DNA from: Octopus vulgaris
Taxonomy: Eukaryota
DNA: 64,000 nt
NCBI GenBank assembly: GCA_951406725.2
Contig: OX597821.1
Span: forward strand, 72,788,001 to 72,852,000
Reading direction: 5' to 3'
The position numbers and the translations under genes are program-made. Below, piece by piece: positions 4,559-58,729 of this stretch. Every line of letters starts with the position of its first letter. Positions within the stretch are counted from its first letter, which is position 1. The notes beneath the pieces were generated by a model. The model saw nothing but the letters and a program-made list of their open reading frames with translations. It had not been told where the DNA came from and did not search any database.

Positions 4559-4720
4559 GACAGGCTTCTTTCAGTTTTCGTCTACCAAATTCACTTACAA
4601 GCCTTTGGTCGGTCCCGAAGCTATAGTAGAAGACATTTGCCCAAGGTGCCACGCAGAGGGACTGACCCGGTACCATGCGGTTGGTAAGCAAGCTACTTAC
4701 CACGCAGCCACGCCTGCGTC
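4239..4720 (-). mobile_element. tRNA-derived SINE family B with internal microsatellite
   Basis: Collinear with the copy at 47076-47463. (CA)/(CATA)/(TA) array in the middle. Confidence 0.85.
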
Positions 4721-11310: not shown

Positions 11311-12836
11311 GATGAAAGGAATATTGGCCATCTTTCCTCGTTTTAACTCAGTTAACAAGACAAACTGTGGTCACAGAAACTACCGAATCCGTTGTTTACT
11401 TTTATTTGAGTTAAAAACAAAAGATGGCCGGAATATTTAACCTTTACCCATCCACCAGCTATTTGCAATGAGTGGATGACAACAAAACCATAGCAATGGT
11501 GAGTCACGTGGTGGCCAATTGCAGTAACACTAAATATCGCTGCCAGATGCTTTATATCCCGTTTGGCAAGTCTCTTGATCTCTTGACCAAAATATAAACA
11601 ATTCATACAGTTGATCTGAAATAAAATAAAGCAGAAAAATGGTATTACCCCGTAGCATAGTTTATTATTTATGATAAATCTATGGTTTCATGTTATTTTC
11701 CAGCGAACTGTTATAACATTGTATTTGTGTTGACAGAATCTTATATTGTCCCTGACAAAACCACTTTAAAATGTCTTTCAAAAAATATATAATGGATCAT
11801 ATTAGATTTGTTATTTTTCCCCGCCACAAAATATACTTGTAAAATAGAGGTGCGTCTTATATGCCTACAAATATGCTACACACATGCACATGCGCATAAA
11901 CAGTAAAAGGAACTGCTCTGAGAACTTTGTCATGGGCAAAAGCAGGAAAGTGTTAATATTTTTATGAATCTGTTACCAGTTGTAATCGTTTAAAAACGAT
12001 TTTGTCAAACTGAAATAAATGGAAAAATAAATTCAAATAAATAATTTTTTTTCTGTTTTCTGTTAGAGCTCTGCATTCAGGAAGTAATAAAGTTTTTGTT
12101 CCACCATCTTGCTAGATTATTCATTAACATTTTTCTTATTTAGCAGGATAATTAAAACAATATTAGTAAGTTTTTCCTCTCCACGTAATTATTTCTGATT
12201 AACTTTTCCATTCCCTCTGCATTGCATATTTTAACACTAATTAATTATTTTTAGGCTGATGGCGTGTTTGCGTGAATTATTTTCTAGTATATTTATTTAG
12301 TCATTTTCTCGTCATTACTTCGAGAAAAACAGTTACGGCTGGGCTTCGCTGAGGATGTTTAATAAGAGTGAAACAGGTTCGGGGTTGTTTCTCGTACTTG
12401 CTGGAATAATTAAAACTAACGGAATCCTTGATAATTCCTTGTTTTTATTTCCATCTTGATGTATAAATTTATCGATCTTCATAGTATTGTTTCATGTTGT
12501 TATAATATTTTGATTACATCTTCGATTTCATGGCAAGTAGTAACAAACTCTAAGGAAAACAAAACAGCAAAAAGGCTCCAGAGAAGAATCCCTCTTTCTC
12601 GCATGTGTTTCTGTTCTTAACTCCTTACACTCTTAGGGACCAGGCCGCATCCAGATTATGACACCTATATATCCCTCTGCTGTCATATTCTCTACTATTA
12701 TTTGCATTACAACCCTCCTGGATGGTTAAGGTACCTTTGATTCAAGGTACCTTTGATGTCGTAACCAGTTCACTCTAAGACACCAGTCCCCCTTTGACTA
12801 GATCCAGTTTGAACTCCCCTTCGCTACTTCTGTCCT

Positions 12837-18166: not shown

Positions 18167-18541
18167 TTGTTTCAGTCATTTGAGTGTGGCCATGCTGAAG
18201 CACCACCTTTAGTTGAACAAATTAACACCAGTACTTATTTTTTGTAAGCCTAGTACTTATTCTATCGGTGTCTTTTGCTGAACCGCTAAGTTACGAGGAC
18301 GTAAACAAGCAGCATGGGTTGTCAAGCAACGGTGGGGGAAAAAATACAGACACATAAACACATACATACATATATATATGACAGGCTTCTTTCAGTTTCC
18401 GTCTACCAAATCTACTCACAAGGCTTTGTTTGGCCCGAGGCTATAGTACAAGACACTTGCCCAAGATGCCACGCAGTGGGATTGAACCCGGAACCATGTG
18501 GTTGGTAAGCAAGCTACTTAGCACAGATCCACTCCTGCGCC
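18167..18541 (-). mobile_element. SINE family B
   Basis: Full-length match to the family consensus. Confidence 0.85.
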
Positions 18542-24238: not shown

Positions 24239-24629
24239 TCTCTTTATATATAAAGCTGAAGTTGTCTGTGTATGGCAGGTTTGGTAGCCTTCAACTAACA
24301 CTATCTCCTCCAAGACGCTGCGGCGCAAGTTGACCAACATTGAGAGTGTGATAGAAGGCTTGCTCTTCCTTCCGTAGAAGAAAATATTCAAATCGGACCA
24401 TGTTAACACCCAAAATTATTTACATCATAAAGGTGCTTTTTTTCTATGAAAATCCCTATTTTTTACGATTTTTTGAGTGCTGTGTCGCCATTTTTCGGTG
24501 TATTTCAACCAGAAAAATGTTCACTTAAAGAGAATAACAAGCTACATAACGCAACATTTTTACTTTTCAAAAATTCCAATTCTAAGTGGGGTCGAAACAA
24601 ACCCGAGCAACGCCGGGCGATACTGCTAG
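24239..24629 (+). mobile_element. non-autonomous Helitron
   Basis: 5' TC, 3' hairpin cccgagcaacgccggg followed by CTAG, inserted between A and T. Three copies in the window. Confidence 0.85.
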
Positions 24630-24630
24630 T

Positions 24631-25411
24631 ATTAATAAAACGTAAAACCTTTTCAATCCATAATTTCGCACCACTCTCGTCCATCCACCCTTTCTCGTGA
24701 AAATGAACAAAAACGCCAGGAGGAAAATCTATTGTTTTACGTTTAAAAATAACCATAGATTTTAATTTTGTACCGTCAGCCATGCAGGATAATACCACCA
24801 TAAACCTCGTTTTCTCATATCCTGTGCTTTTACAATGCACTGTTTTTACTCCTTTCAAATCTACCGTTTTGTTACCCAATATGTCAAAGTTTAATAGAGT
24901 TTCATCCATATTTCCAATATGAGACAATGGAAACTGGTGCCTTTTTCTCAGCTGGATGATGAACTGGTGAAAACTGGTTACTTTGTGATCGAGATCTCTC
25001 GGGAGATTTTGGGCGATTTTTATTTTCTCCCTTATTACCAGATATTTTCTGTTAATAAAACGATTGCACCAACCTACTGTTGCTTTAAAATCTTTACTTT
25101 CTCCTTTATAGCCCATTTGAGAACATAAGATCTTATTTTATTTCGTTTTACAATGTAGCCATCTTGTCTCTGCTGGACTACCCATCCTACTACATCATTT
25201 TCCAACTTCAGCCAATGAGTGCTTCCTCTTCCCATTACACATTTCTGTTTGGGAATTTGTCTTAACTTTCCTTCATTCTTTCTTCACGTTCGTACTTCTC
25301 AATAGCATCGAATGTTCCAGAAGTAGCACGATTGTTCGAACTCTTGACAACTTCTATAACTTTCAATTTGAAACTAGCCTCATATTTTCTTCTTTTTGTT
25401 GGTAGTTGCAT
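24631..25411 (-). pseudogene. pogo transposase: Brinker-type DBD, CENP-B HTH and partial DDE_1; frameshifted and truncated
   Basis: MQLPTKRRKYEASFKLKVIE...; FKATVGWCNRF; IGNMDETLLNFD; GYEKTRFMVVLSCMADGTKL; KGWMDE. Confidence 0.85.
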
Positions 25412-28030: not shown

Positions 28031-28872
28031 GGATCTTTTCCCTTTCAACGGCAGATCGAGAAATGAATTTTTTGTAACTAAACACTTTCAAACTTCGGAC
28101 ACTGGTAGAATGTGTCATATAAAACATCTTTTACTCTTAGTGTTGTTGAGAAAAGTTTCTATTTTCAAAGTTATTTCGTGTTAAAGTTGTCCTATTTCGG
28201 TAATTTCAACCGAAACAATGTATTCAGCTGAATAAAATTACTACTGTTGTTTGTCAACAACAACTTCCGACGGTGTATATTTTGTTTGTCATTGTTATTT
28301 GACATATTTCATCTCAGTTACGTTTGTATGAATAAACGAGTGTAGCTGAAGCATGTTTACTTTATGACACCACCATAATCGTTCGTTGCGTTTCTACTGC
28401 TTTTAGTTTTTTTCCTGTTTTTCAGCTACTGTTTTCGGAAAGACTTTTTTGCCCCCTCCAATTTCTTCATTTTCACCCCTCCCCTCCAATTTCTTCATTT
28501 TTCACTTTTCTCCGTAACTCTAACCCTAAAACCCCAACCCTAACCCTAACCCTAAAACCCTAAAGCTAAAACCAGTACAAACGCACGAACGATGTCATAA
28601 ATAACAGTGACAAACGAAATATACTCCGCCGATAGTTGTTGTTGACAAACAACGGCAGTAGTTTTATTCAGTTGAATACACGTCATTGATTGGTTGAAAT
28701 TACCGAAATACGACAACTTTAACACGAAATAACTTTGAAAATAGAAACTTTTCTCAACAACACTAAGAGTAAAAGATGTTTTATTTGACACATTCTACTA
28801 GCGTCCGAAGTTTGAAAGTGTTTAGTTACAAAAAATTCATTTCTCGACCTGCCGTTGAAAGGGAAAAGATCC
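28031..28872. mobile_element. GGATCTTTT-family MITE with central (CCCTAA)-like repeats
   Basis: ~280-bp inverted arms; aaccctaa repeats at ~28515-28570; no TSD recognisable. Confidence 0.75.
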
Positions 28873-39767: not shown

Positions 39768-40231
39768 ATGTATGTATGAGTGTATGTATGTATGTATGTA
39801 TGTATGAGTGTATGTTTACTTTATTACTAATTACTCTCTTCCCAGAACATTTTCACTCACTCTTAGCTCTTAGCTTCCCATACATTTTACTCATGTATCT
39901 ATCAGCGTCATAGACAGAATACTTTCACTTTAGTCTTCCTCAAATCACTCTGTCGCTATTTACTTTCATTTTATTCGTTGCCCACTGTGTGTGTGTGTTT
40001 GCGTGTGGTGTAAACCAGACTAAGAAAAGCATTTGACACACACACCAGAATGTGAGTTTTCTGTAAATTTTGCTTAATTGGAGTTTAAATTTTAAAAACT
40101 GGACCTGGCATGACGCGATGCATTGTACTCTCAAAAATGCTAGGTAAATTGTAATTGAAGAAATCCTATATTGTAGATTTCTATAACTCCCAAAGGGAGG
40201 CAGATAAAATCTGCCTTTTATAATAAGAGAT

Positions 40232-40474
40232 GAACATCTTCTCCAGCTGGCTATTGACACACTTTCTATGTCCTATCGAAGATAGGTGCGCTGACGACGG
40301 GTAAATATTCAGAAACCCGGGTCTGTGCGTATCACGTCAGGTCGACGATGGGAAGGATGGCTTTCCTTTGCAAATACTGATAGGGCACAGAAAGTGTGTC
40401 AATAGCCAGCTACAAGATACAGTAGCATCCACCCTTAGTGGTTAGCCACGTTTAAGTGTCAGATATACTTCACA
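40232..40474 (+). mobile_element. diverged, partly deleted copy of the inverted-arm hammerhead element
   Basis: Homologous to 46620-46970 in the opposite orientation; ends in ...tcaCA. Confidence 0.8.
40286..40328 (+). ncRNA. type I hammerhead
   Basis: gtgcg CTGACGA c gggta-aa-tattc a GAAAC ccgg GTC tgtgc. Confidence 0.65.
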
Positions 40475-41907: not shown

Positions 41908-42898
41908 AACTTCAACACAGCCAAAGCATTCTATAGGGGATTAGTGGAGGGGAAGTACGACGAGGATCTCGGAGCGAACCTGGGCGTTGACGAGGAATAC
42001 CTGACCCGCCTGTTCAAGACGACTTTCGGGCCTGGACCTATGGACAACTTCCAGAGATCCCTGGCCTGGCAGTGCTACCGAGAAGCGCTACCCGTTCGAA
42101 ATAAGCTCTACAGACACGGCTCGAGAAACATGGGGCCGACCTGCCCGAGATGCGGTCAGAGCGACGAAACCGTTCTGCACGCACTCGTGCAGTGTCCAAC
42201 CATTTCCGACCTGTGGATTTATGTCGAACGACTGCTGTCACGTGTGGGACGAATCGGTTTATCAACTGAGTCTATCGTCAATATCGTCACGCCTCCTTCC
42301 TTCAAACGGGACGGAGGAGCTATTTTTATCATCCTTGTGGCTATGGCGAAAGAATGTATCTGGTGGACGCGTCTGAAAGGATTAGAGACAAACACTTCCT
42401 TCTCTGGTCAATCTTTTATCAACTTCTTCAAGTATCACTTGAAAAGGAAAGTGAGAGTAGAGAGGCAAATTTTGTCTAGCGAATTTAAAAAAAAAAAAGA
42501 TGGGTGAATGTAGCAAGGATGGCACGTATGAATGACGAAGCCAACTTGAGCATAATCCTATTCACTCGGAAAAATTTAAAGCAGAGAGTTACTTACTTGC
42601 AAATAGATATGTTAACATGTGACATTATTGACCGAGGTTACCGTGGTCTTTTCCATAGGCTTTTCTTTCCACGGATAAACCTTATCTGCTTCCCCCTTTA
42701 CACTTTACATCATGACATTTCTGTGATACACGATCCCTATTGATCGTTTTTTTTTCTCTTTTTACGATCCCTTTTGATCGAAAACCTATCCCCCTTTTTC
42801 TTTTCCTTTTTTCTTTTCATTCTTCCCCCCCCCCAAAGAAAAGCCCTACTTTGTAATTTGTCCCCTCTGTATTCAGCCCTGTGTGGTTAATAAAGAAA
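41908..42898 (+). mobile_element. 5'-truncated Tx1/L1-clade LINE (zf-RVT region and 3' UTR)
   Basis: ORF 41944-42507 contains LAWQCYREALPV...CPRCGQSDETVLHALVQC...W. The 3' UTR ends in aataaagaaa followed by (CATC)n. Confidence 0.85.
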
Positions 42899-44185: not shown

Positions 44186-44778
44186 TTTCTTATATATTTT
44201 TGAAGATTATGACACCTCGTGACATGAATACCAGTTCTAAATTATGAAGAACTATTTTTTAAAACAAAAGAAAAAAAAAAACCCAACGTGCACAAGCAAT
44301 TGCTTGTATTTACATGAAGTCGGTGTTTGTCAAAATTTATTAGAAAATTGAAGTCAAATATAAATTAAAATTCCAAACTAATTACGTAAAAATGATGTAA
44401 GGGAGACAACCGGAGTTTTTCCCCCTACAACTTGGTTGGTACGAACTCTGTCCTTTACAATATTCAGTGTGTGTTTGTGTGTGTGTATGTGGTGTGTGTG
44501 TGTGTGTGCGTGTGTGTGTACGTGCAAACACACACACGCGCGCACACACACATGCACGCGCACCCCAACTACACGTTTGCATATGCTCTTAGTCATACAC
44601 ATACTCATACCCTTACACACGTGTATAGTGTAGGAAACTGCGGGCGAGAAGTTCCCCAATGCCGAGGGGCGAGAATTGTTTATGGTCATATATATTCAAA
44701 TATGTGTGTATGCAAGTATGTATGTGTGTGTGAGTGTATATTATATATATTCATACATGTGTATATGCACATATGTAT

Positions 44779-45280
44779 ATGTGGAGAAGGATTGTGCTTG
44801 AGGGGACAGCTACTTTTGAGAAATCTCGAGTTGCGCATGAGAAAGTGAGGAGGGCTGTCAGGAAGGGCATCGCTGTTACACTTCCAAATGGGAAGGGTCT
44901 TCCTATAATGCTGACATGCAATGTCTATGCAAGACCCTGCCTCAGTAAAGCTGGACTCAAGAGTCATCTTCGTAGTCATAAAGCGAGACAGATGAGTGAC
45001 AACCTGGCCACTGGTGGTGGTGTAACACACCATACTAATCATATCTGTCGGGCATGTGGAAGAGAGTGTAATTCGGCAGGAGGACTTAAACGACATGCAA
45101 AGGTACATGAAGCCCAGTTACAACCACAGCCGGCTATTACTGGTAAAGGTTTTAGTTGCCAATTCTGTACAAGACATTGTAGATCTTTAGCTGGGCTAAA
45201 AAGTCATATTCGATCACAGTACCAATAACAGTTAAGCTTTCTGCAATGGCCATACTTGATAACGAGGTGGCAGCCATTAT
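44779..45280 (+). mobile_element. RTE-clade LINE 3' end encoding three C2H2-like fingers
   Basis: WRRIVLEG...FE..R....RR..RK followed by three C..C.R.C.S.AGLK.H repeats, stop at 45228, short 3' UTR. Confidence 0.75.
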
Positions 45281-45362: not shown

Positions 45363-45564
45363 CAGTTTCTTTGGATTATATGCGGGTATTCTATTTCAGA
45401 TAATACAAAAAAAAAAAAAAAAGAAACCTAATGAGTATATCTGAAGGTAAACTCATGGTATCTATTTGCACATAACGAAATAATACTTTAAAGGACATAA
45501 CCAGTATACCAGGAGGGTATAAAATACACTTTCTTAATTAAAATTAAAATTATCAATTATGATG

Positions 45565-45594
45565 AAACTACTTGTGTTTCAGTATTGGAAGATT

Positions 45595-45651
<57 letters not shown>

Positions 45652-46130: not shown

Positions 46131-46213
46131 ATACATTTGTGTATCATCATCATCATCATCATCATCGTATGTATATATATTGTAATCTTCCAATACTGAA
46201 ACATGTGTAGTTC
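46037..46213 (+). ncRNA. hammerhead with a microsatellite in stem II
   Basis: gaac CTGAAGA t gtgtttgaa...[TA/TG/CAT]n...ttccaatac t GAAAC atgt GTA gttc. Confidence 0.65.
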
Positions 46214-46619
46214 CATCATAATTAATAAATTTAAGTGTTAACTTAAGTAGGAGATAATTAAGGAAGCATATTTTATACCCAGCTGGTATACTGGTTATAT
46301 TCTTTAAAGCATTATTTTGTGATGTGCAAATGCATACCACGAGTTTACCTTCAGATATACTCATTAGGTTTCTTTTTTTTGTATTATCTGAAATAGAATA
46401 CCCACATATCTATTAATCCCCCAAAAAACTGAATTATTATTGACTTTTATTAGATACTTTTATAAGATATGATAAATAAGACCCAAAGTTACGACATGCA
46501 GATGCATGTAATGCTGAAGGGTTGTACCTGATTGATTTGGAAATTCGTTTTCCCAAATTATCTAAATACATATATATATATGTGTGTGTATATATATATA
46601 TCTATATATATATATATAT

Positions 46620-46970
46620 TGTGACGCATATTTGCCATTTGAATATGGCTAACCCCTAAGGGTGGATGCTACTGTAGTTTGTAGTCCCAGGAAGATATCT
46701 CCTCCAGCTGGCTATAGACACACTATCTGTGCCCTCTCAGTATTTGTGAAGGGAAGTCATCCTCTCCGTCTTCAACTCATGATACACACGGACTCGAGTT
46801 TCAAGGTGTTTACCTATCATCAGCATGTGACAATCATGGTTGTCGACGAGAAGTCAGCTCCCTATAGTGTGTCTATAGCCAGCTGGAGGAGATATCTTCC
46901 TGGGGCTACAAACTACAGTAGCATCCACCCTTAGGGGTTAGCCATATTCAAATGGCAAATATGCGTCACG
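46620..46970 (-). mobile_element. ~350-bp element with 106-bp inverted arms enclosing a hammerhead
   Basis: 46621-46726 versus 46864-46969 differ at one position; adjacent to (TA)n. Confidence 0.9.
46785..46829 (-). ncRNA. canonical type I hammerhead ribozyme
   Basis: cacatg CTGATGA t aggt-aaac-acct t GAAAC tcga GTC cgtgtg: 6-bp stem I, GUC cleavage triplet, palindromic stem III. Confidence 0.85.
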
Positions 46971-47075
46971 ATGTGTTACCGCTACCGTTTATAACTCGCT
47001 CTGAGATTTATCATTATATATATATATATATAAATTGTCAAAGAGGACAATAAACGTTGAGACAAGACAAACATA

Positions 47076-47463
47076 GGCGCAGGAGTGGCTGTGTGGTAAG
47101 TAGTTTGCTAACCAACCACATGGTTCCGGGTTCAGTCCCACTGCGTGGCATCTTGGGCAAGTGTCTTCTGCTATAGCCCCGGGCCGACCAATGCCTTGTG
47201 AGTGGATTTGGTAGACAGAAACTGAAAGAAGCCTGTCATATATATGTATATATATATGTGTATGTGTTTGTCCCCCTAGCATTGCTTGACAACCGATGCT
47301 GGTGTGTTTAAGTCCCTGTAACTTAGCGGTTCGGCAAAAGAGACCGATAGAATAAGTACTGGGCTTACAAAGAATAAGTCCCAGGGTCGATTTGCTCGAC
47401 TAAAGGCGGTGCTCCAGCATGGCCACAGTCAAATGACTGAAACAAGTAAAAGAGTAAAAAGAG
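47076..47463 (+). mobile_element. SINE family B, full length
   Basis: A box tggctgtgtggtaag, B box gggttcagtccc, central TA/TG tract, tail gaaacaagtaaaagagtaaa. Confidence 0.9.
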
Positions 47464-55443: not shown

Positions 55444-56656
55444 GAGTCTTAATGAAAATAAATACTATACAGCTTTTGCTGTAATAGTTTTTAAACGAAG
55501 ATTTTACGCATAACCACTTATTCTAACTTTACATCATGAGCCGAGTGAAGGTGGAATTTAAAATCTAAAGTCATTAAATTCAGTCTGGCACGGAATATTA
55601 TGATTTCGGTAAAGTGTTACAGAAGCGAAAGACGTGAATGTCGATGATTCCCTTGTGCAATTCCGGAAATATTACAAGACGATGAAAGTTTTCTGAAGAA
55701 AACGAACCAAGCGGTTAATTGTAGCCACAAGACTTTCAAGATGTCAAAGACAAGAATTGGAGATAATGAGGAAAAAACAAACCGTTTTTAACTTGATTGA
55801 CAGAATTCAAATAATACTCCAACTTGTATCGCTTAGCTTTAACCCCTTCGAAAATATGCAATTTATTTGTGGACAAATTTAATACACAAGATGGTTGTTA
55901 ATTGTCAGCTCCCTGAAATACTTGCGAAGAAGAATATAGAAGCATTTATAGATCTATCTGCTATATTTGTTATGTATCGATAGTTACAGTGAAGGCGCAT
56001 GGCTCAGCGCCGAGCTTACGACCGTGAGGTTGTCAGTTCGATTCCGGACGCGAAATCTTTCTTACACGAGAGTTCCGGACCCCAATCAGAGCTCACCTTG
56101 ACCTTGTTGTCAAGTTAACAAACACATTCTAGCAAGTAAACTCAAGACGAAAAACGATGTTGTAAGTCGACCGATCGCCATGTTACGCCTGATTTTAGAA
56201 AGAGACAAGTAATTAGATAGATTTGCATCTATACCTATTATCGGATTTTGTTAGGGCCCCTTATGGTAAAGATGTGGATGGGGAACATGTGGGTAGAGGG
56301 TGATGTGCTAGCAATCCTCTCTTCTTACTGTTTTACAAAGTAAACTACAACGCAAATAATTACGTGGAAGCAGCCATGGTTGAAACAAGAACAAGAACAA
56401 CAAGCATTCTTAAAAGAGAAAAGAAGTATGGTCATTCCTTACCCAAGTGACCTTATCTTATCGCCCATCACTTGTTATGCGCTCCTAAATTAGTTTGATA
56501 GTTGAGCTCTGATTAAAGAAGACGACCTCAGCATACAAGTACAGACACCACAAAACATCACAAGATACTCAACCTAAAAACAAAGCTATATGAAAGGGCC
56601 ACTCAAGAAAATATAGAAAATTTTTAAGGCCCATATAGGCTTTTAAAGACTACATT

Positions 56657-57619
56657 ATGAGAGGAAACAGATTTGTCATGATCGAAGTGAGATTCGACAG
56701 TGAAGAAAGAGCCAAGGACCTCTCCACAAAGTCCTTTCAATTTGAAAATTTACTGATGATCCCTACATACCTTGGTCGTAGGGTCACAAAAATAACAATA
56801 AAAAGTGTGCTCCCTGAAATAGAAATAAAATGGCTTGTGTCTGCCATTTGCTATGACATCGAGGACGAAATCCATATCTTGGAAATCGTTGTCCTAGATC
56901 AGCAAAACTGGATTGGCCAAGGAGTCGAAACCCTTGCTCAAATCGATCCAATGAATTTCGAAAGAATTCTACATCGAATCCAACTGACAGAGGATTCGAG
57001 TTTGCAAATGGCCGTCGAAGGCAGAAAGCCACGTAGCTGCGTTTGTGGTAGGAAAGCACACTTGAAAATTAATTGCCCACTAGCACTAAAACAACAACAG
57101 CAACAGCAGCAACAACTACAACAACAAGATCACGAAAAACAACAACAATCACAAGAAAACCAAAAGCCGAGCAAAAACCCAGCACTGCTACCCGCATCGC
57201 CATATGCACAACTAATTAAGCAGCTCTACAAGCAAATGAAAGAACATCAGCAAACCAACAAACCAACAAACCAACAAACCAACAAACCAACAAACCAACA
57301 AACCAACAAACCAAACAACACCACCTCCACCAGCGCCACCAAGAACAGAAGCAACACCATAATCACCACCACCAACAGCAACAACAACTTCAAAGGAGGA
57401 AGAGAAAAACAAAAAGACTCATACCCCACTCCCAAAACCCAAATACCACATCCCAACTGTCACCAAACAGCACCAACACCACCAACAACAAAGTCAACAC
57501 ACTCAGAAATAGATCCCAATACCCTTCCCCTCCCACCCTCTGATTCCTCAGATGAAGACGACACAGAGGATTGGCAAGTGGCCACAGGAGGGAGGAGAAA
57601 AAGTGGGGAAAAAGAATAG
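56657..57619 (+). CDS. Tx1/L1-clade LINE ORF1 remnant (degenerate CCHC knuckle, low-complexity tail)
   Basis: 320-aa ORF with VEGRKPRSCVCGRKAHLKINCP, upstream of an APE start. Confidence 0.65.
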   Translation: MRGNRFVMIEVRFDSEERAKDLSTKSFQFENLLMIPTYLGRRVTKITIKSVLPEIEIKWLVSAICYDIEDEIHILEIVVLDQQNWIGQGVETLAQIDPMNFERILHRIQLTEDSSLQMAVEGRKPRSCVCGRKAHLKINCPLALKQQQQQQQQLQQQDHEKQQQSQENQKPSKNPALLPASPYAQLIKQLYKQMKEHQQTNKPTNQQTNKPTNQQTNKPNNTTSTSATKNRSNTIITTTNSNNNFKGGREKQKDSYPTPKTQIPHPNCHQTAPTPPTTKSTHSEIDPNTLPLPPSDSSDEDDTEDWQVATGGRRKSGEKE

Positions 57620-58068
57620 GGAAGCAGACAAACAAAGCAGGGAGGTTTACCTCTCTGGAAACCAAAACACCCTCAGAAAACAAAAGCATCAACATAAACA
57701 CACTAACACCAAACACCCCAACAATGTTGACAGCCATAAACACCAGCAATCCAGACCTAATGGAATACATTGGGTCAAACACCGACATAACCGAAAACGA
57801 TACCAAAACAAAGAATCACCCACGCACGACACCACCACAACACATTAAAATCATACACATAACACACAACACATACAGCACACTGAAATCTCCCTACTCG
57901 GATGCAGTAGGAAGATTTCAAAAAAATACCTCTCTAAAAAACTGTGCAAAAACCTTCTGGGAGAAGACCGTGAGGTGAAGGACAAAGAACTTTCGGACAG
58001 TAAGTGACTCTCTCTCTCTTTCTCCTTCGTCTTCCTTTCGTGTGTAAAACACAACTTTCGATAGGAAC

Positions 58069-58542
58069 ATGCTCAAAACAGACAGAATAAATGTACGTGG
58101 CTTGGGGTCGCCTTGGAAACAAGGCTACTTGTTAAACAACATCAAGTCACAAAATCTGCATATCATAGCCATCAGTGATACCAGACTCCACAGCCCTTCG
58201 GCCCCTCCAGCACATGTTCGGCAGACATTTCGACATTTATTTTTCTCCGTGTCTGCCGAGAATGGACGGAGGTGGCACCGCGGTGCTTCTCCGGAAGAGT
58301 CCGTGGTCTTTTCTGTATGCTTTCTTTCAACGGATGAACCTAATCTTGTTTGTTACTTTGAAAAGAAATTTTTCTTTCTGTGATACACGATCCCTTTTGA
58401 TCGCTTTTTTTCTCGATCCCTTTTGATCGGAATTTTACATTTGTTTCCTTTTTTTCTGTTGCCTTTTCCATCTTCGAAAAGAAAAGCTCTACATTTGTAT
58501 TTGTCCCCTCTGTGTCCAGCCCTGTGTGGCCAAGAAAGAAAG
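58069..58542 (+). pseudogene. Tx1 ORF2 APE N-terminus fused directly to the 3' UTR
   Basis: INVRGL...IIAISDTRL and GGTAVLLRK, then sequence homologous to the 42700-42898 3' UTR (tgatacacgatccc...ttgtcccctctgt..cagccctgtgtgg). Confidence 0.8.
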
Positions 58543-58729
58543 TTATCTATCTATCTGCCTGTCTGTCTCTCTGCCTATCTATATGTATGCATATACATAA
58601 ATGCACAACTTACTGCTAATAAAAACGAGGTTGCGTTGCGTTCAGTTATTTAATAAGTAAAAAAAATGTATTGTAAATGTACAAGCGAAAAGTAAAAAAA
58701 ACCATTTAATGAATGCGCGTGCGCTCACA

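What the first reader, a model, noticed from the sequence alone, without database searches (positions are those of the whole stretch)
46620..46970. ~350-nt fold-back element: 106-bp inverted arms enclosing a canonical hammerhead ribozyme
Seen: the arms differ at one position (G-U compatible). The 137-nt centre holds CUGAUGA/GAAA/GUC with a 6-bp stem I and palindromic stem III ACUCGAGU. Ends are TG...C(G/A), beside (TA)n, and there is no ORF. Established: minimal type I hammerheads with palindromic stem III occur in Penelope-like pLTRs and retrozymes and act as dimers, whereas MITEs are not normally expected to carry ribozymes. Inference: a non-autonomous element that looks like a MITE in DNA but would give a rod-like self-cleaving RNA. 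It could be a Penelope parasite, a retrozyme-like RNA, or a DNA transposon that captured a ribozyme.
Basis: partly seen in the sequence, partly recalled or inferred. Interest (0 to 1): 0.8.

Follow-up and report, generated by a model that had tools for sequence, protein, structure and literature searches.

The report
Truncated Penelope retrotransposon end with ribozyme
The fold-back and its hammerhead motif are real and belong to a very abundant repeat whose copies fold back at many different points, so this is likely the ordinary cut-short end of a Penelope-like retrotransposon, laid down head-to-head with a short tail, and not a new kind of mobile element.

Summary
The 106-bp arms (one mismatch) and the type I hammerhead motif (minus strand, 46829-46785) are real. 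The MITE-like reading fails. A second, ~70% identical copy lies in the window (40236-40473) with its own hammerhead and a different fold-back point. Head-to-head 5'-truncated copies, an optional tail on one end, a hammerhead in the pseudo-LTR and (TA)n targets are the published signature of endonuclease-bearing Penelope-like elements (PMC8557442, PMC3846280, PMC11167929, PMC4209133). The RT/GIY-YIG ORF that defines membership was not found, so a non-autonomous Penelope parasite remains possible. Cleavage is untested. The scan noted the same pattern before in other genomes (e1-7789271, e1-7788964). Lead: a branch-point/acceptor-like motif just before the arm suggests the ribozyme hairpin may lie in a 5'-UTR intron.

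The parts
46566..46619 (.). (TA)n-rich microsatellite at the end without a tail; likely target
   Evidence: TRF period 2, 27 copies; family contigs leave the element at the mirrored place 46969 into (AT)n in 29, 30 and 19 contigs of runs X2, X3, X6 (table 7)
46621..46863 (-). Sense copy, 243 nt, 5'-truncated end of the unit (likely pseudo-LTR)
   Evidence: Aligns to copy 2 over ~200 nt at 70%; contigs of X3, X6, X13 continue past 46863 with other family sequence (table 7)
46785..46829 (-). Type I hammerhead motif; predicted cut between 46791 and 46790; palindromic stem III
   Evidence: Rfam RF00163 19.1 bits, E 0.021; 12 of 20000 shuffles; 6 listed family variants in it, none in the 12 core or 6 stem III positions
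46752..46862 (-). Imperfect extension of stem I (30 pairs with stem I in the constrained fold); predicted
   Evidence: centre alone z -1.7, 11 of 200 shuffles as good; the first 10 loose letters beyond 46863 would pair with 46749-46740 in register (read, table 7)
46727..46741 (-). Branch-point-like CURAY motif and CAG acceptor-like site, 10 nt apart, directly before the arm start; inferred, untested
   Evidence: Sequence; the letter after the branch-like A is U or C in 77, 85, 92, 90% of depth in the four runs
46863..46864 (.). Head-to-head junction of the two truncated copies; copy-specific
   Evidence: 15 other joints listed, all different; none of the 32 listed pieces (of 9530) bridges this one
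46864..46969 (+). Inverted, more deeply 5'-truncated copy (106 nt) = right arm
   Evidence: 105 of 106 identical to the left arm; family contigs continue before 46866 with the sense-copy sequence (30, 31, 8 contigs, table 7)
46970..47014 (+). 45-nt extension present at one end only; likely the Penelope 'tail'
   Evidence: No second copy in the window; covered by family contigs up to 47002 (pieces 8, 15, 16, 22, 23, 24; summed depth 1.4-3.9e5 in X2 and X3)
46952..47014 (+). ATG-initiated frame of 21 codons open through the tail; possibly the first codons of the parent ORF (weak)
   Evidence: no protein match
47015..47032 (.). (TA)n at the tail end; likely the other half of the target
   Evidence: Sequence
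40236..40473 (+). Second, older copy of the family: inverted piece 40236-40277, junction hairpin 40272-40286, sense copy to 40473 ending in (CA)n, hammerhead core from 40291, predicted cut after 40323

Best explanation
This is one insertion made of two copies of the same repeat end, cut short at different points and joined head-to-head, with a 45-nt extension on one side, and it is likely the truncated 3' end (pseudo-LTR) of an endonuclease-bearing Penelope-like retrotransposon written into a (TA)n tract. Shown: the anatomy, the high-copy family, the variable junctions, the two kinds of 3' end and the conserved ribozyme core. Inferred from published Penelope biology: the element's GIY-YIG endonuclease nicks (TA)n on both strands; its reverse transcriptase starts at two nearby internal sites of the element RNA (46969-equivalent and the tail end), both cDNAs stop early (after 243 and 151 nt), and their ends are joined (or one cDNA snaps back and is copied), giving near-identical arms. 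The fold-back is thus a by-product of one insertion, not the mobile unit. The hammerhead is the normal pLTR ribozyme, predicted to cut poorly alone and better as a dimer or with protein; this copy has no ORF and is predicted to be dead on arrival.
For: Copy 2 has the same layout with another junction and a 6-bp hairpin at it. 4159, 3677, 1524, 104 contigs laid in four runs; 15 listed joints (13 left-part-to-right-arm, 2 opposite-strand) all differ, one contig per run, depth 12-126 against summed family depth 1e5-2e6; the 10 hidden joints are less supported. Loose ends show the unit continuing on both sides of this junction and ending at 46969 or 46972 in (AT)n, while other contigs run into the tail. 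Summed depth falls from the 3' end inward: about 34000, 10000, 1800 and 550 times the median joint depth at 46910, 46782, 46814, 46846 in X2 (a rough ratio, not a copy number). Both arms share this copy's minority letters at mirrored sites (46696/46894, 46693/46897), as expected of one template. Literature: inverted 5'-truncated copy plus 30-40-bp tail (bioRxiv 2021.04.23.441226 passages; PMC3846280 passages and Discussion); tail = distance between two RT start sites, AT-rich cuts on both strands, protein-assisted ribozyme (PMC11167929 parts 1-2); hammerheads in pLTRs, mostly single and truncated (PMC4209133 parts 1-2); (TA)n bias hiding TSDs (PMC8557442 section 15).
Against: No RT or GIY-YIG sequence was linked: none in 148 of 208 filtered window frames, no protein match to the 21-codon frame, and 0 hits for 12 short motifs (8 from this family) in the supplement of PMC8557442. 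Loose ends show at most 30 letters of the upstream continuation. The tail is 45 nt, a little over the published 30-40. The fall in depth partly reflects subfamily divergence from this one copy (pieces stop at 46802 where copy 2 diverges). Some joints have sides under 30 letters and may be false. This copy's own junction was not seen bridged in the listed pieces. The core-conservation test is weak (p 0.14 core only, 0.036 with stem III; 12 variant rows hidden).
Confidence: 0.72

Rival explanations
1. Non-autonomous Penelope parasite: a short ORF-less unit (a solo pLTR of a few hundred nt) is transcribed and mobilised in trans by a Penelope enzyme; the variable fold-backs and tail arise the same way at insertion.
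For: Very high abundance with steep loss of depth 5' of the ribozyme; no ORF found; pLTR sequence suffices for mobilisation in trans in Adineta (PMC3846280 passage); retrozymes are proposed as pLTR derivatives (bioRxiv 10.64898/2026.07.22.740005 parts 1 and 3).
Against: No pile-up of a fixed 5' start is seen within the laid stretch; the unit continues past 46863. Heavy 5' truncation is the rule for autonomous PLEs (PMC8969392 passage). An ATG frame open through the tail fits a parent ORF (weak).
Confidence: 0.2
2. MITE or fold-back DNA transposon with ~106-bp terminal inverted repeats that captured a hammerhead and inserts at TA.
For: Long near-perfect inverted arms, TG...CA-like ends next to TA, no ORF, high abundance.
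Against: Arm length and centre differ from copy to copy; the arm is continuous with the centre in the family; one end bears an optional tail; no shared junction at high depth.
Confidence: 0.03
3. Non-LTR retrozyme: tandem 150-450-bp units cut by hammerheads into monomers that circularise and re-insert.
For: Canonical-like type I hammerhead with palindromic stem III; a U.U at the base of stem II also occurs in axolotl HHR_Amex2 (PMC7229834 passage).
Against: No tandem at either window copy; none of the 15 listed joints is of a go-back (tandem or circular) kind; one ribozyme per insertion.
Confidence: 0.03
4. This locus's fold-back is an assembly or library chimera of a common repeat.
For: No listed piece bridges 46863/46864 (32 of 9530 shown).
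Against: The arms differ at one base, the centre and tail are unique to one side, the flanks differ, and other copies show the same kind of join.
Confidence: 0.02

Closest known systems
Complex insertions of canonical EN+ Penelope-like elements (Penelope/Poseidon, Neptune, Nematis, Hydra): pLTR + inverted 5'-truncated copy + tail (PMC3846280, PMC8557442, PMC11167929)
   Same: Head-to-head truncated copies, optional extension at one end, hammerhead in the terminal repeat, AT-rich or microsatellite target with no discernible TSD, hairpin at the junction in copy 2.
   Different: ORF not reached, so clade unknown; tail 45 nt rather than 30-40; cut site lies 170 nt from the 3' end and no ORF runs through the ribozyme, whereas the Anolis PAc ORF starts in stem II; ribozyme sits at the tip of a longer predicted hairpin.
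Metazoan type I hammerheads of PLE pLTRs (PMC4209133; Rfam RF00163)
   Same: Complete core, 6-bp stem I, 4-bp stem II, palindromic stem III suited to a dimer.
   Different: U.U (family often A.C or other) in place of G10.1-C11.1; score below Rfam's gathering threshold; not the helix-III-less minimal form.
Non-LTR retrozymes of metazoans (PMC7229834; bioRxiv 10.64898/2026.07.22.740005)
   Same: Non-coding, a few hundred nt, type I hammerhead, probable pLTR kinship.
   Different: Not tandem here; dispersed, inverted, variably truncated; no circular RNA evidence.
MITEs (PMC8969392 passage)
   Same: Short, non-coding, inverted arms, abundant.
   Different: No fixed TIR length or centre; unequal ends.
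Naiad_Obim/Ovul/Omin and Hydra-1_Obim, (TA)n-targeting octopus PLEs (PMC8557442 supplement)
   Same: (TA)n preference; Hydra-1_Obim bears a hammerhead.
   Different: Its listed hammerhead row differs from this one and 8 short motifs of this family were not found in that file (a motif across a line break could be missed); Naiads lack canonical hammerheads.

Membership tests
EN+ Penelope-like elements | ORF with telomerase-like RT and GIY-YIG endonuclease linked to this terminal sequence | tested here: inconclusive
   None in 148 window frames; short frame unmatched; no genome held, upstream continuation seen for only 30 letters
EN+ Penelope-like elements | Variable 5' truncation with a shared 3' end | tested here: met
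   Shared end at 46969/46621, continuation past 46863, depth falling inward
EN+ Penelope-like elements | Inverted 5'-truncated copy adjacent at the 5' end, junction differing among copies | tested here: met
   Two window copies and 15 listed joints, all different
EN+ Penelope-like elements | Optional 30-40-bp tail at one end | tested here: met
   45-nt extension, present in some family contigs and absent in others; slightly longer than published
EN+ Penelope-like elements | Type I hammerhead in the pLTR | tested here: met
   (motif only; activity untested)
EN+ Penelope-like elements | Partial tandem forming a direct pLTR around an ORF | not testable with these tools
   Needs the genome assembly
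EN+ Penelope-like elements | AT-rich or microsatellite target | tested here: met
   (AT)n loose ends in 29, 30, 19 (+12) contigs; both window copies abut dinucleotide tracts
Hammerhead ribozyme type I | Conserved core and three stems | tested here: met
   19.1 bits, under the gathering score 34
Hammerhead ribozyme type I | Site-specific self-cleavage | not testable with these tools
   Only contigs were available; they cannot show RNA ends
MITE | Uniform length with fixed TIRs and centre across copies | tested here: not met
MITE | TSD and TIR shared with a transposase element | tested here: inconclusive
   (TA)n hides any TSD; no partner searched genome-wide
Non-LTR retrozyme | Head-to-tail tandem units each with a hammerhead | tested here: not met
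   No tandem at the two window copies; no go-back joint among 15 listed, 10 hidden
Non-LTR retrozyme | Monomeric linear and circular RNA | not testable with these tools
   No raw RNA reads listed

The most novel reading that the evidence does not exclude
The ribozyme of this family sits at the tip of a ~40-bp hairpin inside a retained 5'-UTR intron, whose stem overlaps the branch site: splicing would remove the ribozyme to make translatable mRNA, while unspliced RNA keeps a dimer-dependent hammerhead and serves as the transposition template. The family may moreover be an ORF-less, very high-copy parasite of a Penelope enzyme. Either would give a direct handle on the open question of what Penelope hammerheads do.
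Probability: 0.12. Interest if true: 0.5.

Novelty: new member of a known kind. Interest (0 to 1): 0.17.

Why it matters
As it stands it is ordinary: it shows how truncated Penelope ends mimic MITEs and can be misfiled by structure-based annotation. The practical value is a very abundant family in which junctions, tail ends and ribozyme variation can be counted to test models of Penelope insertion. If the intron reading held, it would tie splicing to ribozyme removal, and the function of hammerheads in EN+ Penelope elements is stated to be unclear (PMC8557442 section 15).

Tried and rejected
No whole genome is held, so copies were studied through two window copies and contigs of four public runs. 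Exact-pattern scans found nothing: viral contigs, metagenome contigs, prokaryote genomes. Protein searches with the short frame were blank (Atlas hits 0.78 and 0.75, no family); the queries were 31-43 aa, so this is weak. Pfam scan of 148 of 208 filtered frames showed no Penelope domain. No RNA holder on record was listed; run X13 is only guessed to be RNA and may hold DNA, so expression is not claimed. Table 6 (piled ends) was empty, which contigs cannot inform. Rfam over 2.5 kb gave only microsatellite-driven miRNA-type hits. The 3' end plus tail has no notable fold (z -0.6 and 0.46). The 3-bp palindrome at this copy's junction is chance level (269 of 520 positions score 3 or more). I first thought family letters at 46764/46765 repair the long stem; this holds only in a bulge-free register read by hand, not in the computed one, and the majority letter at 46778 breaks its pair unless the partner also changes, which is not listed, so covariation of the long stem is inconclusive. 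A third loose motif at 12349 was dropped as chance (4 of 20 window shuffles give one hit). Three joints near 46798-46802 do not fall on the cut site and coincide with subfamily divergence. Paper searches for a description of this family found none, but Dfam, Repbase and the repeat library of PMC13282606 could not be searched and its one supplement was listed only, so 'undescribed' is not claimed. Look-ups of earlier scan notes by sequence and by place were empty.

Full report
Observation. The window is AT-rich, microsatellite-laden animal-type DNA. It looks like an octopus genome; that label is recalled from the SINE at 47076-47240 and comes from no call. The inverted arms are 46621-46726 and 46864-46969, 106 bp with one mismatch, around 137 nt; the minus strand folds into a rod at -248.5 kcal/mol, z -26. 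The hammerhead lies on the minus strand at 46829-46785 with a predicted cut at 46791/46790. Rfam's Hammerhead_1 model matches it end to end at 19.1 bits, E 0.021, below its gathering score of 34. A loose descriptor is met by 12 of 20000 shuffles of the centre. The ribozyme fold costs 3.7 kcal/mol against the free minimum of the centre (-36.4 vs -40.1), and the palindromic stem III region pairs with a second molecule at -12.1 kcal/mol, which fits a dimer-type ribozyme; activity is untested. The arm mismatch is C.A on the ribozyme strand, and the right arm is followed by 45 nt of non-repetitive sequence before (TA)n.

A second copy. BLAST of the element against the window found a 70% identical relative at 40236-40473. 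It has its own hammerhead (core from 40291, CUGACGA, a different palindromic stem III), ends at the same 3' point in (CA)n, and also has an inverted piece at its 5' side; but its sense part starts about 10 nt before the core instead of 40, its inverted part starts about 13 nt further upstream, and its junction is a 6-bp hairpin with a 3-nt loop. So arm length and centre are not fixed.

The family at large. Twenty of 24 listed runs hold the stretch or part of it, under four organism labels. I laid four of them on 46590-47060 at 80% likeness: 4159, 3677, 1524 and 104 contigs matched. Table 7 (24 rows shown, 536 hidden) gives four facts. Contigs leave the sequence behind 46969 (29, 30, 19 contigs) or 46972 (12) into (AT)n. 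Other contigs run on through 46970-47002 (pieces 8, 15, 16, 22, 23, 24), so the extension belongs to the family and is optional. Before 46866 contigs continue with the sequence that precedes the left arm in the centre (30, 31, 8 contigs), so the arm is only the last 106 nt of a longer unit. Behind 46863 contigs of three runs continue with further family sequence, so the sense copy here is 5'-truncated. Table 5 lists 15 joints (10 less supported ones hidden): all differ, each is one contig per run, three recur in a second run, and depths are 12-126 against summed family depths of 1e5-2e6. Some have sides under 30 letters and may be false. None of the 32 listed pieces (9498 hidden) bridges this copy's own junction. 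Summed depth in run X2 is roughly 34000, 10000, 1800 and 550 times the median joint depth at 46910, 46782, 46814 and 46846; the tool warns this is no copy number, and divergence between subfamilies contributes, but the order of magnitude and the inward fall are clear.

Conservation of the ribozyme. Of 40 variant rows shown (35 places; 12 rows hidden), six places fall in the 45-nt motif: position 7, both letters at the base of stem II, two loop II letters and one stem I letter; none is in the 12 core or 6 stem III positions (p 0.14 and 0.036). The stem I variant turns this copy's U.G into C-G in 95-97% of depth in all four runs. This is modest support for selection on the fold. Stem I extends into an imperfect 30-pair hairpin (z -1.7), and the first ten loose letters beyond 46863 would add ten pairs in register (read); covariation of that extension was inconclusive.

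What it is. The anatomy matches published Penelope insertions point by point. Craig et al. describe an inverted 5'-truncated copy adjacent at the 5' end and a 30-40-bp tail at one end (bioRxiv 2021.04.23.441226, passages), hammerheads in canonical and Hydra PLEs, and (TA)n bias hiding TSDs (PMC8557442, passages and section 15). Arkhipova et al. describe inverted pLTRs, the optional tail, the first 12-22 codons lying in pLTR plus tail, head-to-head arrangement and palindromes at the junction read as self-priming (PMC3846280, passages and Discussion). Frangieh et al. show that the tail is the stretch between two internal RT start sites, that the enzyme cuts AT-rich DNA on both strands, and that the ribozyme needs protein and is dispensable for insertion in vitro (PMC11167929, parts 1-2 of 4). 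Cervera and de la Pena report that most such ribozymes are single motifs of truncated PLEs with low activity (PMC4209133, parts 1-2 of 4). Penelope families are abundant and recently active in Octopus vulgaris (PMC13282606, passages), and 235 Hammerhead_1 hits were counted in giant squid (PMC6962438, passage).

How it likely works. Inferred steps: the parent's endonuclease nicks a (TA)n tract; reverse transcription starts at the two 3' sites of the element RNA; the cDNAs stop after 243 nt (sense copy) and 151 nt (arm plus tail) and are joined, or one snaps back and is copied. That both arms carry this copy's minority letters at mirrored sites and differ once in 106 fits one template and a young age. 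A read-through transcript would form a long duplex, but that is a by-product. One ribozyme cannot release a unit-length RNA, so this copy is predicted to be inert.

What is missing. The defining RT plus GIY-YIG ORF was not linked. Pfam found none in 148 of 208 filtered frames of the window. The one frame open through the tail starts at ATG 46952 but matched nothing. Pattern scans of three collections were empty. The element therefore works like a Penelope end; membership and clade are not shown, and an ORF-less parasite (0.2) cannot be told from a truncated autonomous element (0.72) here. MITE and tandem retrozyme each fail a defining test (definitions from passages of PMC8969392, and PMC7229834, and parts 1 and 3 of bioRxiv 10.64898/2026.07.22.740005).

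A lead. Just before the arm start the ribozyme strand has a CURAY-like motif (Y in 77-92% of family depth; this copy has G) and, 10 nt on, a CAG after which this copy's arm begins exactly; three further joints start at 46864-46868 region, partly an edge effect of the laid stretch. Penelope of Drosophila virilis and Chlamys-3 have an intron in the 5' UTR at the pLTR (PMC8557442). The motif names are from my own knowledge, the spacing is short, no polypyrimidine tract or donor was identified, and no spliced read was seen, so this stays a hypothesis.

Earlier notes of the scan. After I had stated my reading, a word search returned two notes on other genomes that reached the same verdict for fold-back hammerhead elements; they are unchecked AI notes and are not counted as evidence.

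Verdict. Real, but most likely an ordinary truncated Penelope-like insertion of a very abundant family: new member of a known kind, interest 0.17.

Noticed in passing
window 45410-45597 and about 46175-46385: Another inverted pair, about 89% identical over 131 nt by the tools and extending toward (TA)n tracts at the inner ends; the right member holds what looks like the 3' half of a hammerhead (GAAAC, palindrome, GUA) near 46199. Unrelated in sequence to the finding; four short motifs were absent from the PMC8557442 supplement.
   Followed up: partly
window 39816-40235: The inverted piece of copy 2 stops against other sequence that begins (minus strand) with TC, an AT-rich run and two small palindromes, like a Helitron-type 5' end (label recalled); no long relative in the window.
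   Followed up: partly
window 47076-47240: tRNA-like SINE with 8 other hits in the window, the best 92% and 88% identical at 18377-18541 and 4559-4718; recalled as an octopus SINE, not tested.
   Followed up: no
window 41908-42507 (+): Fragment of a non-LTR retrotransposon ORF2 end, Pfam zf-RVT E 5.8e-08.
   Followed up: no
window 44734-45228 (+): Frame with two C2H2 zinc fingers, E about 3e-06, possibly the tail of a LINE ORF.
   Followed up: no
window 24505-25137 (-): Decayed pogo/Tigger-type transposase fragment, weak DDE_1 and HTH_Tnp_Tc5 hits below cut-off.
   Followed up: no
window 56639-58650 (+): 326-aa frame with a CCHC-like motif followed by frames resembling an endonuclease start; looks like a decayed Tx1-type element by eye, no Pfam hit.
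   Followed up: no
window 28515-28573: Short degenerate (TAACCC)n telomere-like tract inside the window.
   Followed up: no
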